From an uncultured Chloroflexia bacterium (GTDB taxonomy: Bacteria > Chloroflexota > Ktedonobacteria > Ktedonobacterales > Ktedonobacteraceae), in NCBI GenBank assembly GCA_963735495.1, contig CAVTLG010000003.1:32080-96079 (forward strand): DNA of 64,000 nucleotides. The letters are read 5' to 3'. The notes under the pieces were generated by a model. It searched no databases. It worked only from the letters and a program-made list of their open reading frames with translations, and was not told the DNA's origin. Position 1 is the stretch's first letter, and the number at the start of each line of letters is the position of its first letter. A program made the translations under genes and the position numbers. Positions 5,663 through 55,642 of the stretch are shown piece by piece.

Positions 5663-6778
5663 TCACAAGTTGCAGGCAATGCCAGCATAGGTCTTGCTCA
5701 AGGCAACCCCTACTGATCCGGTCATCTGGAAGGTGTCGATCATACGATGGGCAGGCGTCAAGCCTTCTTGCAGCATAAAATAGAGTGGATCAAGAAACTG
5801 GGCATCTTCATCAGCACCCAGCGCGCGCCTGACTGCATCTAATACAGCAAGCGCTCCGGCAGAAATATCAGTATTGCTAAAACCTTGAAATGCCGATCTC
5901 TGGTGCAGGGGGACATCAGGGGTCAGTGCGCGACCGGAGAGGGTTGTATCCAGCGCTAAGCCCTTGAGCAATGCGCAGATGCCCGCGTAAATGGTGAAAT
6001 CATCACAGCTATCACAGCCTTTAAACTCAATGCGACCAACTTCCCCAGGAATACGAGCCAGTTTTGTGAGCGAAGGCACACTATCGAGCAACTCATCAGC
6101 GTGCGCGAGAAATACGAGCGTCGCCGGTCGCAGTCCACTGCGCAGAAAGGTGCGCACGGATAACCCACCCCATAAATGACCCTCGATAAACGGTGAGCTA
6201 TACGTAAAAGGTATAATGTAAGGACTGTAATAGGTAAATTTGTGTCCAATATCGATCATGGCACTCGTTGTCATGCTTTGCATGGACATATTGATGTCAG
6301 GCCCATAGGTCAGCAGAGAAAATGGAGAAGTCAAATCCTCGGGGGAAATTTGTAGCTGTGCTTCTTCAAAAGCATTAAAAGGGGGATCGGGCACAAACTC
6401 CGAACGGTAGGGATGAAAGCTCGTGAGTACAGGGGAAAAACCGCTCTCGACAACCGTTTCATAGAGGATACGAAAACTCTGCGTTAACTCGTCAATAGCT
6501 CCCTGTATGGTTGGATGAGGTGTTGTACGAATCTCGATGCCCTTCGATAAGTGATCGATCAATTTACCTGATGCATCGAAACGTTCAAGACCTTCAATAT
6601 ACCAGCGTTTCACCCTGATCCCCGCGTCCCCAACATGTAGCCAGGGATAGTCTCCAGCATAGGTAGGCAGTTTCGCAATGATTGCCTCAAACTCCGCAAA
6701 TGATGTGGAGGCAAAATCAGCAAACTGACCCTCACGATTAAGAAAGGCTACCTCGTGCTCAATACCAAATGTGAACAT
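5663..6778 (-). CDS. Carboxylate-amine ligase / glutamate-cysteine ligase family 2 (GCS2)-like protein
   Basis: The N-terminal FGIEHEVAFL motif and overall size resemble GCS2-type ligases. The assignment is from memory of the family only. Confidence 0.45.
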   Translation of the reverse strand: MFTFGIEHEVAFLNREGQFADFASTSFAEFEAIIAKLPTYAGDYPWLHVGDAGIRVKRWYIEGLERFDASGKLIDHLSKGIEIRTTPHPTIQGAIDELTQSFRILYETVVESGFSPVLTSFHPYRSEFVPDPPFNAFEEAQLQISPEDLTSPFSLLTYGPDINMSMQSMTTSAMIDIGHKFTYYSPYIIPFTYSSPFIEGHLWGGLSVRTFLRSGLRPATLVFLAHADELLDSVPSLTKLARIPGEVGRIEFKGCDSCDDFTIYAGICALLKGLALDTTLSGRALTPDVPLHQRSAFQGFSNTDISAGALAVLDAVRRALGADEDAQFLDPLYFMLQEGLTPAHRMIDTFQMTGSVGVALSKTYAGIACNL

Positions 6779-7135
6779 GTTAACTTCTCCTAATTACCCC
6801 TTTTCACAATACAACGGCGGTAGACGCATACCCCGTGAGCTGCTCAAGTAGAGCGATATGCCTGCGGCTCACGCTATCTTCTCGCAGTCCATCTATTAGT
6901 ATAACCTAATATGCGGGTTTTTAGCAGGATTTTCGCGGCCAATTTGACCTTATATCCTATTTTTGATTACTCTATCATCGTTATCACGTGATTGAGATAG
7001 TTAGGCATTAAAAAAAATTAAGATATCGATGCTATCAGTATGAGGTTATTTGCAAAAAAGACTGCGAGAGTGTATATTTATGTAAGGAAGTGCAATTAGT
7101 GCTTTCAATTCAGACTCAGCCAAAAGGACTACAGA

Positions 7136-7462
7136 ATGGGTTTCGATCAATACCATGAACCTGTTAACGAATTGTCGCAAGCTACGCGGACGTTTGCTCG
7201 AGTGATTACATCTCTGCAAGAGGAGTGTGAAGCCATTGGGTGATATCAACAGAGAACCTCATTAGAGCAAGATCCCGAAGCAAAGAAAATCTTGCTCCGT
7301 GCTCAGTCCGAGGAGTTCCTACACTTCGCTATGGATCTGGAGTTCTTGCTTCGTCGCCACCCACAATGGCGAATCGCTGTTCAGAGTGTCCTATTTAAAC
7401 CTGGTGATATTATTGCAAATGCAAAGCACGGGGAAGCAGAGCTGGAAGCGTCAGAACAGTAA
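7136..7462 (+). pseudogene. Encapsulated-ferritin-like (EncFtn/Flp-type) gene interrupted by one in-frame TGA (7241-7243) at a conserved Trp position
   Basis: Translation is MGFDQYHEPVNELSQATRTFARVITSLQEECEAIG*YQQRTSLEQDPEAKKILLRAQSEEFLHFAMDLEFLLRRHPQW...EQ*. An AAAGGA lies upstream of the ATG. Neither half appears in the ORF track. Confidence 0.7.
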
Positions 7463-7805
7463 TTTGCCAGTCGCAGTAATATCTGTACACCCCTCAAACG
7501 CTCTTTTAGGATAGTAGCACTTTTCCGCGTAGCGTCTTTCTTTAGAAAGTTTCTACTATTCTTGTAGGGATACAGGTCATCCTTTCAACATGATGACCTG
7601 TATCCCTATTTCGACTGCCACATTTCTGACCTGGAAAGCCTGGAGTATGCTCTCCCTATCCCCCACACATCCCCATCCCAAATATTGAGCCTCGTCTCCC
7701 TGCCCCACTTTGCTACTGGCGAGAGAAACAAGAGGCGCGCTTCAGGCCCAACGAGAACGAGTGCTCTTGCTTCTCTTCCCTCTTCACCCGCCAGGAGACA
7801 GTGCA

Positions 7806-8414
7806 CTATGACAACCATGTTGTCTTCACTGAATAGTGGGTAGGTATACGTGCAGAGCGAGTGACTTTGGGATAGCCAACATAAATAAAACCCACGATGT
7901 GATCCTGAAGAGCCAGGCCGAACCAGCGCTTAACGACCGGATCATAGGCGGTGTCGCCTGTACGCCACAATGTTGCCAGTCCCATCTCTTCAGCCGTTAA
8001 GAGCATGTTCTGGACCGCCGCCGCCGTCGCTTCGATATTCTCAATCAGCAGTCCTTCCTGATGCAACGCACCTCTCATTGTCGCAACAATAATGACAGGG
8101 GCACGTAGCGGCTTATTGCGTTCCCTTAACAGCTTAACGCGTTTTTTCTCTTCAGGGAGTCCTTCGTCGTATTTTTCCATACGTGCTGCTAGCGATGCGG
8201 CCATCGCATCACCTAATCTCTCACGAGCAGTTCCTGTTACGACAAAAAAGTGCCATGGCTCGGTTACATGGTGGCTGGGCGCATAGACAGCGGCTTCCAG
8301 CATTTGCTCAATCTGTGCCTGCGTTGGTTGCTCCTGTGTGACCTGACCAACGCTACGTCGGTGCTTGATGACGTCCAATACTCGTACGGCTGGCGCATTT
8401 AGTACAGCGTTCAT
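7806..8414 (-). CDS. Nitroreductase family protein
   Basis: Motifs are VIKHRRSVGQV, APSHHVTEPWHFFVV and a C-terminal GFIYVGYP. ATG is at 8414; an alternative GTG start is at 8432. Confidence 0.8.
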   Translation of the reverse strand: MNAVLNAPAVRVLDVIKHRRSVGQVTQEQPTQAQIEQMLEAAVYAPSHHVTEPWHFFVVTGTARERLGDAMAASLAARMEKYDEGLPEEKKRVKLLRERNKPLRAPVIIVATMRGALHQEGLLIENIEATAAAVQNMLLTAEEMGLATLWRTGDTAYDPVVKRWFGLALQDHIVGFIYVGYPKVTRSARIPTHYSVKTTWLS

Positions 8415-8725
8415 ATGGCTTACTATCTCCACTAGAAGAAATACTCTTCATGGTTTCATATTAGCATGGAACTACTATAAAACCGTTTTCCTGTGAAATG
8501 TATCGCAAGCTTCTTTCTGATCACTTACGATAGAGGGGCGAATCTAAAATATCCCCTTCGTTTTACACGTACAAGAAGTGCTATTTTTACCGATTTCGTC
8601 GGCAATTTACCACTACACCCCAGAAAAAAGTACTTTCGGTATTTCTCACGCCCTGCTGTCTTTTCATAAATAAACACCTTCTATCCTTCTTAAATAAGAT
8701 GCAAAAACACTGCGTCATCTAATGA

Positions 8726-8759
8726 CAGATGTACTCACATAAGACAGCGAGTACATCTG
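8726..8759 (-). terminator. Hairpin downstream of the VIT1 gene
   Basis: An 11-bp stem CAGATGTACTC/GAGTACATCTG is present. There is no clear T-run. Confidence 0.35.
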
Positions 8760-8813
8760 AACAACAATAACGCCTTTCTTCTTCAGGGATAGCATCCAAA
8801 ACCAACCGGATCG

Positions 8814-9866
8814 TCAAGCATTTCCTAACAGAAATGCCACTGCAAAGACGAGAGCTCCACCACCAACCACCTGCACGATAGAAAGCCACCAACTGGTTCC
8901 GAAGAACTTATGGCGGATCGCAGCAATCACTACGAGCTCAACCGCAACGACAACATAAGCCGTCGTTAGCGCAAGGTGAATATTCGGCAGGAGGAAAGGT
9001 AATGCGTGTCCCAGTCCACTGAGAAATGTCATCAGACCCGTGACGCCTCCACGCAGAAATGGTTTGCCGCGCCCGGTGAGTTCGCCATCGTCGGAGAGCG
9101 CTTCAGAAAAGGCCATGCTAATGCCTGCGCCTAAAGCTGAAGCCAGGCCGATGATAAACGTTGTGAATGGGTTATGCGTTGCGAAAGCCACTGAAAATAT
9201 CGGAGCCAGCGTCGAAACAGAACCATCCATTAAACCCACTAAGCTCGGCTGGACTATTTGCAAAACAAAGTCCCGCGATGCGTCTTCCGCAGGAGCCTCT
9301 TCTGGCTGACTGCGCGTTGCAGCCGGGTTGTTAGGTCCTACTAACATTCCGGCATTGGGAGTAACGGGCATATTCCACGCGGGGTGAAGTGCCGGTTGCG
9401 CCTGCATTGCTTGCGCCTGCATGAGTTGCGCTTGCATCGCTTGCGTTTGCGTCAGTTGCGCCTGGATCGCTTGCAGTTGAGCCTCTATCCCTTGCCCCTG
9501 CATTGGCAAAGGCTGGGACTGTACCGTTCGTGCTTGCATTGGCAAAGGCTGGGACTGCGCAAGAGGGCTTTGCCCTACGTTGATGCTGTACCATTGCTGA
9601 TTAGCGCCCGCGAAGCTGACTCTCATGACAGGTGCGCCATCCGCTCCAAGCGCAGGCTGTGCGCCTTGCGGAAAATTCATGCCATTGGGTGGAGTCTCCT
9701 GCGGTTGCCCATTCACTACAGGTATGCGCCCTCCCGTAACAACTGGCGGCGTAATTTGCCATCCTCTCATGGGGGAAGCGGCCTGCCAATCATCCCCAGC
9801 TAGCGGTGGTGCATATGGGCTGACCGGTCCATCATCCCCGAAGGCTGTCGGTGCATAGTTTGTCAT
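8814..9866 (-). CDS. VIT1/CCC1-family iron/manganese transporter domain with a long low-complexity Q/A/M/P-rich N-terminal extension
   Basis: The C-terminal 170 aa (LVGLMDGSVSTLAPIF...GAGISMAFSEALSDDGE...TM helices) match the VIT1 pattern. The N-terminus contains QAMQAQLMQAQAMQAQ and a duplicated SQPLPMQ. A GAAGGAAAA lies upstream of the ATG. Confidence 0.75.
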   Translation of the reverse strand: MTNYAPTAFGDDGPVSPYAPPLAGDDWQAASPMRGWQITPPVVTGGRIPVVNGQPQETPPNGMNFPQGAQPALGADGAPVMRVSFAGANQQWYSINVGQSPLAQSQPLPMQARTVQSQPLPMQGQGIEAQLQAIQAQLTQTQAMQAQLMQAQAMQAQPALHPAWNMPVTPNAGMLVGPNNPAATRSQPEEAPAEDASRDFVLQIVQPSLVGLMDGSVSTLAPIFSVAFATHNPFTTFIIGLASALGAGISMAFSEALSDDGELTGRGKPFLRGGVTGLMTFLSGLGHALPFLLPNIHLALTTAYVVVAVELVVIAAIRHKFFGTSWWLSIVQVVGGGALVFAVAFLLGNA

Positions 9867-54730: not shown

Positions 54731-55427
54731 CTAGTATATGCGTTTCTTTAAATCAGCTACACTTTTCAGTGTAATCCTATGTTTATCGGTACTGATATAG
54801 TCTTTCTCTGTAAAATATCCCAGCACCTTATTCACGCTCTCACGCGATGCCCCAACCATTGAGGCAATTTCTTGCTGCGTCAGCCGCAGATCGATGCGCA
54901 GACCATCGCCCACTTTGATGCCGTGGCTCTCAGCCAGATCCAGCAGTTTCTTGGCTACACGCCCATAGACATCCAGGAAGATCAAGTCCTCCACCTGCTG
55001 ATCCGTATTACGCAACCGCTCACAGAGCACTTCCATCACACGAATAGCAATCTGCGGATTTTTCATAATGGCACGATGAAAATCGCTGCGCTGCAAGCTG
55101 TAGCATTCAACCTTTTTCGAGCGTAATCGCGTCAGCGGAGCGCGGCAAATTATCGAGCAGCGCTAACTCACCAAAGCACTCGCCTTTGCTAAATACAACC
55201 AGTGCGATTTCTTGCCCATCGGGGCTGCTACGACAGATTTTTACTTTGCCTTCTTTGATCACATACAAGACCTGCCCCGGATCATCCTGGTGAAAGATGA
55301 CCTCACCTGCGCGGAACGTGCGCCTTTTTACCACGGCTGCCAGCGCGTCTATCTCTTCATTACTCAGGCCATTGAAGATGTGTACCTGTTTGAGGTAACT
55401 GACTTCTTTCTCAGCCTCCATCGTCAT
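54731..55427 (-). pseudogene. Crp/Fnr-family transcriptional regulator interrupted by a frameshift in an A5 (plus-strand T5) run
   Basis: The cNMP-binding half is ORF 55107..55505, and the HTH half is ORF 54731..55096. Removing one base from the run at 55113-55117 gives the continuous reading ...DAITLEKVECYSLQRSDFHRAI... Confidence 0.7.
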
Positions 55428-55642
55428 TTCCTTTATGTCTCGGGTTACAATTGAAAAGGGCGAAATACTCCCGCAAAGCCATACTATCATAACCATCCCA
55501 CACATGCAATTCTACCTATTGTTTATGGGCAATCTCCCTCCTCACACATGCGCAAATACACAGGACTTTTCAGGTGAAAAGGCCCTGTTTCTGCTTGCAC
55601 ACAAACCATGCTAGCGTTATAGTTCCAAGAAAAGCAAACATT

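What the first reader, a model, noticed from the sequence alone, without database searches (positions are those of the whole stretch)
7136..7462. Hidden encapsulated-ferritin-like gene with an in-frame TGA exactly at a conserved Trp codon, followed by a hairpin
A 108-codon frame runs from ATG 7136 to TAA 7460-7462 and is absent from the ORF track. It translates to MGFDQYHEPVNELSQATRTFARVITSLQEECEAIG*YQQRTSLEQDPEAKKILLRAQSEEFLHFAMDLEFLLRRHPQW... This matches the pattern I recall for EncFtn-type ferritin-like proteins (..EELEAVDWYDQR...DEEKEHAAM.LEWLRR..). The single stop (TGA, 7241-7243) aligns with the conserved Trp, one transition away from TGG. The Glu/Tyr and E-x-x-H metal-ligand positions are retained, so any inactivation is recent. 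Alternatively, the UGA is read through; Trp-tRNA near-cognate decoding of UGA is the classic leaky event. A 9-bp stem (7265-7273 / 7289-7297) begins 22 nt downstream of the TGA. No encapsulin shell gene is nearby. The neighbours include a VIT1 iron transporter, which gives a local iron theme.
Basis: partly seen in the sequence, partly recalled or inferred. Interest (0 to 1): 0.6.

Follow-up and report, generated by a model that had tools for sequence, protein, structure and literature searches.

The report
EncFtn-like ferritin gene with nonsense mutation
A small ferritin-like iron-oxidising gene in a Ktedonobacteria genome is cut short by one G-to-A change that turns an invariant tryptophan codon into a stop; it looks like an ordinary, very recent gene inactivation (or a base-call error), not programmed recoding.

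Summary
Frame 7136-7462 (+) has one in-frame TGA (7241-7243). Read through, it gives a 108-aa protein that passes Pfam EncFtn-like (80 bits, cut-off 27). The stop sits on the Trp equivalent to Trp38 of R. rubrum EncFtn, next to intact ferroxidase ligands.

All 21 orthologue genes examined have TGG there. In a six-frame search of 169 genomes of the class, 79 carry the gene, and only this one has a stop in a full-length copy.

The 9-bp hairpin exists, but its energy is ordinary (z = -0.8). It is 7/9 present in the closest TGG-bearing relatives, because its arms encode E-Q-D and I-L-L. It is unlike the genome's own SECIS.

The genome has selA, selB, selC and a real Sec-containing formate-dehydrogenase-like gene, so Sec had to be tested. 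It failed on position (Trp, not Cys), context (UGA-U) and structure.

TGA is a normal stop here, ending 32% of long ORFs. The gene shows no other defect.

Best reading: a private, very recent TGG→TGA nonsense mutation (~0.65). Sequencing or consensus error is ~0.2. Programmed readthrough or Sec is ≤0.07. Ordinary; low interest.

The parts
7136..7462 (+). EncFtn-like (PF22277) ferritin-like gene, 108 codons, interrupted once at codon 36
   Evidence: single copy in the genome
7241..7243 (+). In-frame TGA replacing the invariant Trp codon (TGG in all 21 orthologues examined); the next base is T
   Evidence: equals Trp38 of R. rubrum EncFtn
7265..7297 (+). 9-bp hairpin with a 15-nt A-rich loop inside the coding sequence. 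Its arms encode E-Q-D and I-L-L. It is incidental, not a recoding signal.
   Evidence: z = -0.8; 7/9 pairs in TGG relatives L022, L023 and L041; at most 6/9 in the others; no Rfam match; unlike the genome's own SECIS
7124..7128 (+). AAGGA Shine-Dalgarno-like motif 7 nt upstream of the ATG, still intact
   Evidence: read directly
7049..7078 (+). Sigma-70-like promoter match (TTGCAA-17-TATATT); a consensus match only
   Evidence: 3 found against 1.7 expected, so weak evidence
5663..6778 (-). Divergent 371-aa gene with no Pfam family; a conserved neighbour of the EncFtn-like gene in the closest relatives
   Evidence: 62-67% identical homologues adjacent in L052 and L053
7806..8432 (-). Nitroreductase-family gene, convergent with the EncFtn-like gene; a conserved neighbour
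8814..9866 (-). MbfA-like / VIT1-family iron exporter gene; a conserved neighbour

Best explanation
This is a stand-alone EncFtn-like ferritin-like gene (not encapsulin-associated) that has suffered one private G-to-A transition. The change turned the invariant Trp36 codon TGG into TGA. Translation should stop after 35 residues. That removes Tyr37 and all of helix 2 (Glu60, His63), which are needed to build the di-iron ferroxidase centre at the dimer interface, so the product is inactive. At most, traces of full-length protein could arise from the ordinary background misreading of UGA by tRNA-Trp. The event is very recent, since nothing else in the gene, its start or its ribosome-binding site has decayed. 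Shown here: the family, the position, TGG in the relatives, that the stop is private to this genome, and the absence of a recoding signal. Inferred: that the base is real (no reads were available) and that the truncated product is non-functional.
For: Family and ligands: PF22277 at 80 bits. The alignment to 5da5 places E30/Y37/E60/H63 on Glu32/Tyr39/Glu62/His65 and the TGA on Trp38. W36 is invariant in 20 proteins, and codon 36 is TGG in 21 of 21 orthologue CDS. The stop is private: 79 of 169 class genomes carry the gene, with about 85 full-length copies, and only this one has an internal stop. The gene is dispensable: it is absent from 90 of 169 genomes, and the same-genus genome G001 lacks both it and its divergent neighbour. 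Recency: dN/dS is at most 0.05 against the nearest relatives, Tajima relative-rate tests are not significant, and there are 5 private residues (relatives have 0-7), none at an otherwise invariant column. Mutational plausibility: Trp codons supply 4 of the 16 transition routes to a stop. The assembly is not noisy for substitutions: 0 other in-frame stops in 156 conserved probe genes. Other broken genes do exist in the genome and in this window: a Crp/Fnr regulator split at 55096-55107, an Fdh-like gene with two frame changes, and a C9 gene with two frame changes. No recoding signal was found. TGA is a normal stop, ending 624 of 1929 long ORFs, and is not enriched at stops flanked by coding-like sequence. 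The only tRNA with a UCA anticodon is tRNA-Sec.
Against: No read-level or independent-assembly evidence confirms base 7243. The gene is otherwise pristine, which fits a base-call error or a functional recoded gene equally well. The nearest sampled relatives are so distant (synonymous sites saturated) that 'recent' is only loosely bounded. Several frame-broken genes in the assembly could reflect assembly error rather than real decay.
Confidence: 0.65

Rival explanations
1. Sequencing, consensus or assembly error, or a minority allele captured in the consensus. The organism's gene really reads TGG and is an intact, functional EncFtn-like ferroxidase.
For: The gene has no other defect, with intact start, SD and ligands and no private change at invariant columns. 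The assembly contains several conserved genes with frame changes that could be long-read indel errors: Crp/Fnr split next to an A5 run, an Fdh-like selenoprotein gene with two frame changes, and a C9 gene with two frame changes within about 130 nt. The assembly has 15 contigs and 86% estimated completeness.
Against: This is a substitution, not an indel, and it is not in a homopolymer. None of 156 conserved probe genes shows another in-frame stop, so substitution-type errors that create stops are rare here. By general knowledge, real nonsense pseudogenes outnumber error-derived ones in finished or polished assemblies.
Confidence: 0.22
2. Programmed or functionally relevant UGA readthrough. Near-cognate tRNA-Trp decodes the UGA, possibly helped by the downstream hairpin, giving a low, regulated level of full-length EncFtn-like protein with the native Trp.
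For: tRNA-Trp misreading would restore the native residue, which is a classical leaky event. The rest of the gene is intact. A 9-bp stem lies downstream.
Against: The stop is private to one genome among about 85 copies, so there is no evolutionary conservation of a recoding site. Hairpin energy is ordinary (z = -0.8). The hairpin is 7/9 present in TGG-bearing relatives, so it predates the stop. It starts 21 nt after the stop, whereas known stimulatory structures sit about 5-9 nt downstream (general knowledge). The 3' base is U, and UGA-U is reported as an efficient termination context in E. coli (recalled from Poole, Brown and Tate, 1995; not checked here). No suppressor tRNA-Trp(UCA) is present.
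Confidence: 0.05
3. The UGA encodes selenocysteine, inserted by SelB with the downstream hairpin acting as a bacterial SECIS.
For: The genome has tRNA-Sec, SelB at 325 bits, 358 with its neighbouring stretch, above the cut-off, SelA at 575 bits, and a real Sec codon in an Fdh-like gene. The apical loop of the hairpin starts 30 nt after the UGA. As I recall, that lies inside the 16-37 nt range of bacterial SECIS models.
Against: Sec replaces Cys in known selenoprotein families, not Trp, and no homologue has Cys at this column; W is invariant. The genome's own SECIS is quite different: UGA-C, a GC-rich stem starting 15 nt downstream, a GGUCU apical loop, and -25.6 kcal/mol over 70 nt. Here there is UGA-U, a 15-nt A-rich loop starting CC, and -12.5 kcal/mol. 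No Rfam SECIS hit appears even at E <= 10. The hairpin mostly exists in TGG relatives.
Confidence: 0.02

Closest known systems
Encapsulated ferritin (EncFtn) of Rhodospirillum rubrum, Rru_A0973 (PDB 5da5), and relatives (Haliangium ochraceum 7oe2, Pyrococcus 5n5f)
   Same: Two-helix EncFtn fold by sequence (E 8e-15 over residues 5-96). The ferroxidase-centre residues Glu32/Tyr39/Glu62/His65, the entry-site residues Glu31/Glu34 and Trp38 all have counterparts (E30/Y37/E60/H63, E29/E32, codon 36). In R. rubrum, Trp38 flanks the entry site; W38A/G variants keep activity but destabilise the decamer (bioRxiv 10.1101/785121).
   Different: There is no C-terminal encapsulin localisation sequence: the TIGR04535 match stops at model position 99 of 114 and scores 82 against a cut-off of 125. 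There is no family-1 encapsulin gene in the genome. The neighbours are a nitroreductase and an MbfA/VIT1 exporter, plus FTR1 in relatives. In this genome the gene carries a stop at the Trp38-equivalent codon.
Stand-alone EncFtn-like proteins of Ktedonobacteria (Pfam PF22277; e.g. 'ferritin family protein' of Tengunoibacter tsumagoiensis, P0080)
   Same: 60-82% identical, 105-114 aa, with the same conserved blocks and the same orphan status. The closest relatives share the neighbourhood ORF371 / EncFtn-like / (FTR1) / nitroreductase / MbfA.
   Different: All of them are uninterrupted, with TGG at codon 36.
Bacterial SECIS-dependent Sec insertion (fdhF/fdnG type)
   Same: An in-frame UGA followed by a stem-loop in a genome that has selA, selB and selC.
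   Different: The genome's real example (C14...NQARI-U-HSSTVPG...) has UGA-C and a GC-rich stem with a GGUCU loop 15 nt downstream. The EncFtn-like hairpin has none of these features, and the codon replaces Trp, not Cys.
Ordinary nonsense pseudogenes arising by G-to-A transition at Trp codons
   Same: A single transition, a private allele, a dispensable accessory gene, and other broken genes in the same window.
   Different: None that the evidence shows.

Membership tests
Pfam PF22277 EncFtn-like | Match to the family HMM above the gathering score | tested here: met
   80.1 bits against a cut-off of 27, profile 1-84/85, with TGA read as W
EncFtn ferroxidase (R. rubrum type) | Di-iron ferroxidase-centre ligands Glu32, Glu62 and His65 plus Tyr39, and entry-site Glu31/Glu34/Trp38 | tested here: met
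   The alignment to 5da5 has a constant +2 offset: E30, E60, H63, Y37, E29, E32 are all present. Codon 36, the Trp38 equivalent, is the TGA. Residue roles are taken from 10.1101/785121.
Encapsulin-associated ferritin-like protein (TIGR04535) | Score above the curated cut-off, including the C-terminal localisation sequence | tested here: not met
   82.1 bits against a cut-off of 125. The match covers model positions 1-99 of 114, and the tail GEAELEASEQ is acidic rather than Gly/Ser/Leu-rich.
Encapsulin-associated ferritin-like protein (TIGR04535) | An encapsulin shell gene adjacent or in the genome | tested here: not met
   PF04454 finds nothing in the 7.1-Mb assembly, while the control genomes respond. 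Family-2 to family-4 encapsulins were not searched, and the assembly is about 86% complete.
Bacterial selenoprotein gene | Sec machinery (selA, selB, selC) in the genome | tested here: met
   a real Sec gene is seen
Bacterial selenoprotein gene | A SECIS stem-loop just downstream of the UGA, with an apical loop of the G-containing type | tested here: not met
   No Rfam match at E <= 10. The 15-nt A-rich loop begins CC, and the energy is ordinary. It differs from the genome's own SECIS.
Bacterial selenoprotein gene | Cys (or Sec) at the homologous position in relatives | tested here: not met
   Trp is invariant, TGG in 21 of 21
Programmed stop-codon readthrough site | The stop codon and a stimulatory element conserved across relatives | tested here: not met
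   The stop is private to one of about 85 copies. The hairpin is a by-product of coding and is present without the stop.
Genome-wide TGA reassignment (TGA = Trp) | TGA is not used as a terminator, and a tRNA-Trp(UCA) is present | tested here: not met
   TGA ends 624 of 1929 long ORFs. The only tRNA-Trp has anticodon CCA, and the only UCA anticodon is tRNA-Sec.
Recent nonsense pseudogene | The disputed base is real in the organism's DNA | not testable with these tools
No independent assembly or contig was found.

The most novel reading that the evidence does not exclude
The UGA at codon 36 is real and is decoded at a useful rate. That could happen by tRNA-Trp near-cognate readthrough or by SelB using the non-canonical downstream hairpin. 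Either way, this lineage would make a deliberately low or selenium-dependent amount of a stand-alone EncFtn-like ferroxidase. It would be the first recoded member of the ferritin superfamily.
Probability: 0.05. Interest if true: 0.55.

Novelty: already known. Interest (0 to 1): 0.1.

Why it matters
It matters little in itself. It is one more accessory gene caught just after inactivation, or a single base-call error that annotation pipelines would flag as a pseudogene. It is a useful negative example. A stop 'exactly at a conserved Trp' followed by a hairpin, even in a genome with full selenocysteine machinery, is what a plain G-to-A mutation in coding sequence produces, and it should not be read as recoding without conservation of the stop. 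The side observation may deserve separate attention: Ktedonobacteria keep an orphan EncFtn-like protein next to FTR1, nitroreductase and MbfA genes and have no encapsulin.

Tried and rejected

2. Independent assemblies: an exact-protein look-up of the neighbouring nitroreductase and exact-pattern scans of metagenome and genome contigs, with the disputed base left open, all found nothing.

I did not attempt it another way and used pairwise dN/dS and Tajima relative-rate counts instead.

4. 'Partner loss' argument. The closest genome-resolved relatives have an FTR1 permease gene between EncFtn-like and the nitroreductase. The window has none and no remnant. I first took this as a sign of locus decay and then rejected it. 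L053, the relative with the highest identity (82%), has the same FTR1-less arrangement with an intact TGG gene.

5. Codon-usage detection of interrupted genes genome-wide: the discriminator was weak (TPR 56% at FPR 4%). It only served to show no TGA excess.

6. The homology-probe screen flagged 18 cases. Most were antisense shadows or tandem paralogues, and the one apparent in-frame stop lies upstream of the true start.

7. The Rfam scan at E <= 10 gave only chance-level hits.

8. Structure prediction was not run. The sequence-level match to solved EncFtn structures (E about 1e-14) made it unnecessary.

Full report
OBSERVATION. An ATG at 7136 is preceded by AAGGA 7 nt upstream. The frame runs to TAA 7460-7462 and has a single in-frame TGA at 7241-7243, followed by T. 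Reading the TGA as Trp gives a 108-aa protein, P0001. A 9-bp stem (7265-7273 / 7289-7297) with a 15-nt loop starts 21 nt after the stop.

WHAT THE GENE IS. P0001 matches Pfam PF22277 (EncFtn-like) end to end, at 80.1 bits against a gathering score of 27. It matches NCBIfam TIGR04535 (encapsulin-associated ferritin-like protein) only below cut-off, at 82 against 125, and only over model positions 1-99 of 114, so the C-terminal localisation sequence is missing. Against solved structures the best hit is R. rubrum EncFtn 5da5 (E 8e-15, residues 5-96) with a constant +2 offset. That places E30/Y37/E60/H63 on the ferroxidase-centre residues Glu32/Tyr39/Glu62/His65, E29/E32 on the entry-site Glu31/Glu34, and the TGA on Trp38. 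The literature confirms that Trp38 flanks the entry site, and that W38A/G variants keep ferroxidase activity but destabilise the decamer (bioRxiv 10.1101/785121). A stop at this codon removes Tyr37 and all of helix 2, so the 35-residue product cannot form the di-iron site (inference from the published structure). No family-1 encapsulin gene (PF04454) exists in the 7.1-Mb assembly. The gene is single-copy.

RELATIVES. The protein database returns more than 3,800 homologues. The closest are 70-82% identical and come from Ktedonobacteria (Chloroflexota) and soil metagenomes. In an alignment of 20, W36 is invariant. At the DNA level, codon 36 is TGG in 21 of 21 orthologue genes. Six-frame searches would detect interrupted copies. 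They find the gene in 22 of 41 close relatives and in 79 of 169 genomes of the class. Of about 85 full-length matches, only the window's copy contains a stop. The TGA is therefore private to this genome. The gene is patchily distributed. The only other species of the same genus lacks it and also lacks its divergent 371-aa neighbour, so it is an accessory, dispensable gene.

NEIGHBOURHOOD. In the window the order is ORF371 (-), EncFtn-like (+), a 343-nt spacer, nitroreductase (-), MbfA/VIT1 exporter (-). The closest relatives share this. Most also have an FTR1 iron permease gene next to EncFtn-like (L022, L023, L052, L054). The window has no FTR1 there and no remnant; homologues lie elsewhere, on C6 and C10. 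I first read this as locus decay. However L053, the relative with the highest identity, has the same FTR1-less order with an intact gene, so that argument was dropped. More distant Ktedonobacteria copies have none of these iron genes within 8 kb.

IS THE REST OF THE GENE DECAYING? No. Against the nearest relatives, synonymous sites are saturated (pS 0.72-0.90) while dN is about 0.1, so dN/dS is about 0.05 or less. Tajima relative-rate counts show no acceleration on the window's lineage. The window's protein has 5 private residues, against 0-7 in relatives, and none is at an otherwise invariant column. There are no indels. The stop is the only lesion, so it is recent, an error, or tolerated.

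RECODING HYPOTHESES.

(a) Genome-wide TGA reassignment is excluded. TGA ends 624 of 1929 long ORFs and is not enriched among stops flanked by coding-like sequence. The only tRNA-Trp has anticodon CCA.

(b) Selenocysteine. Contrary to what one might expect, the machinery is complete: tRNA-Sec, SelB and SelA. A formate-dehydrogenase-like gene on contig C14 has a canonical Sec context...NQARI-U-HSSTVPG.... That gene provides an internal positive control. Its UGA is followed by C, and 15 nt downstream there is a GC-rich stem capped by a GGUCU loop (-25.6 kcal/mol over 70 nt). The EncFtn-like site has UGA-U, a stem with a 15-nt A-rich loop beginning CC, and -12.5 kcal/mol. It has no Rfam match even at E <= 10. 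It replaces Trp in a column where no homologue has Cys.

(c) Stimulated readthrough. The hairpin's energy is ordinary (z = -0.80). Its arms are the codons for E-Q-D and I-L-L, and 7 of its 9 pairs are present in the three closest TGG-bearing relatives. It therefore predates the stop and is a by-product of coding. It also begins 21 nt after the stop, further than known stimulatory structures (general knowledge). Nothing is conserved that would mark a programmed site.

IS THE POSITION SURPRISING? No. Only 16 transitions in this gene can create a stop. Four of them are in the two Trp codons, and two of the four transition routes to TGA are at Trp. A TGA on a Trp codon is the signature of a plain G-to-A mutation.

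REAL MUTATION OR ERROR? This could not be settled. Indirect evidence comes from 156 conserved probe genes taken from relatives' loci. None shows another in-frame stop in this assembly, and two or three show frame changes. The Fdh-like selenoprotein gene changes frame twice. A Crp/Fnr regulator in this same window is split between its cNMP-binding and HTH halves beside an A5 run. That confirms an earlier first-reader note. So broken genes exist, mostly indel-type, which fits either real decay of an accessory region or some long-read indel noise. Stop-creating substitutions are otherwise absent. I put a real nonsense allele at about 0.65 and an error or minority allele at about 0.22.

VERDICT. 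This is an ordinary, very recent inactivation (or base-call error) of a stand-alone EncFtn-like gene. Programmed readthrough (about 0.05) and selenocysteine (about 0.02) are not supported. Interest is low.

Noticed in passing
window 5663-9866; loci L022, L023, L052, L053, L054: In the closest Ktedonobacteria relatives the orphan EncFtn-like gene sits in a conserved iron cluster: an unknown 371-374-aa protein (divergent), EncFtn-like, usually an FTR1 permease, a nitroreductase, and an MbfA/VIT1 exporter. L023 also has ZIP and ferritin genes. No encapsulin is present. An EncFtn-like ferroxidase paired with an FTR1 permease may be a functional unit worth separate study.
   Followed up: partly
genome contig C14 about 751145-754539 (-), outside the window: A formate-dehydrogenase-like selenoprotein gene has a canonical Sec UGA (753843-753841) and a textbook SECIS (GGUCU loop). 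Its homology passes through three reading frames, with frame changes near 752.55 kb and between 752.13 and 752.38 kb. It is either a decaying selenoprotein gene or it contains assembly indels.
   Followed up: partly
window 54731-55505 (-): A Crp/Fnr-type regulator is split into a cNMP-binding ORF (55107-55505, Pfam model cut at 71/89) and an HTH_Crp_2 ORF (54731-55096) in different frames. The junction is beside an A5 run (CTCGAAAAAGGTTGA).
   Followed up: yes
window 7567-7606: A perfect 15-bp inverted repeat (GGGATACAGGTCATC / GATGACCTGTATCCC, 10-nt loop) lies in the spacer between the convergent EncFtn-like and nitroreductase genes. No T-run follows, so the terminator scan did not call it. 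It may be a bidirectional terminator. The spacer it lies in has no other copy in the genome.
   Followed up: partly
window 5663-6778 (-): The 371-aa protein has no Pfam family and only a faint NCBIfam match to carboxylate-amine ligase (E 2e-4). It is conserved next to EncFtn-like in L052 and L053 (62-67% identity) and about 4.4 kb away in L023. It is absent from the same-genus genome G001.
   Followed up: partly
genome contigs C9:740673-741808 (-), C14:163568-164150 (+), C2:1448596-1450016 (+): Conserved genes whose homology to relatives' ORFs switches reading frame. The C9 gene switches twice within about 130 nt. None of the junctions is in a long homopolymer.
   Followed up: partly
whole assembly: ARAGORN finds only 40 tRNA genes with 34 anticodon types. 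No tRNA-Cys and only one tRNA-Ser were listed, which fits an incomplete assembly (about 86% by the completeness estimate).
   Followed up: no
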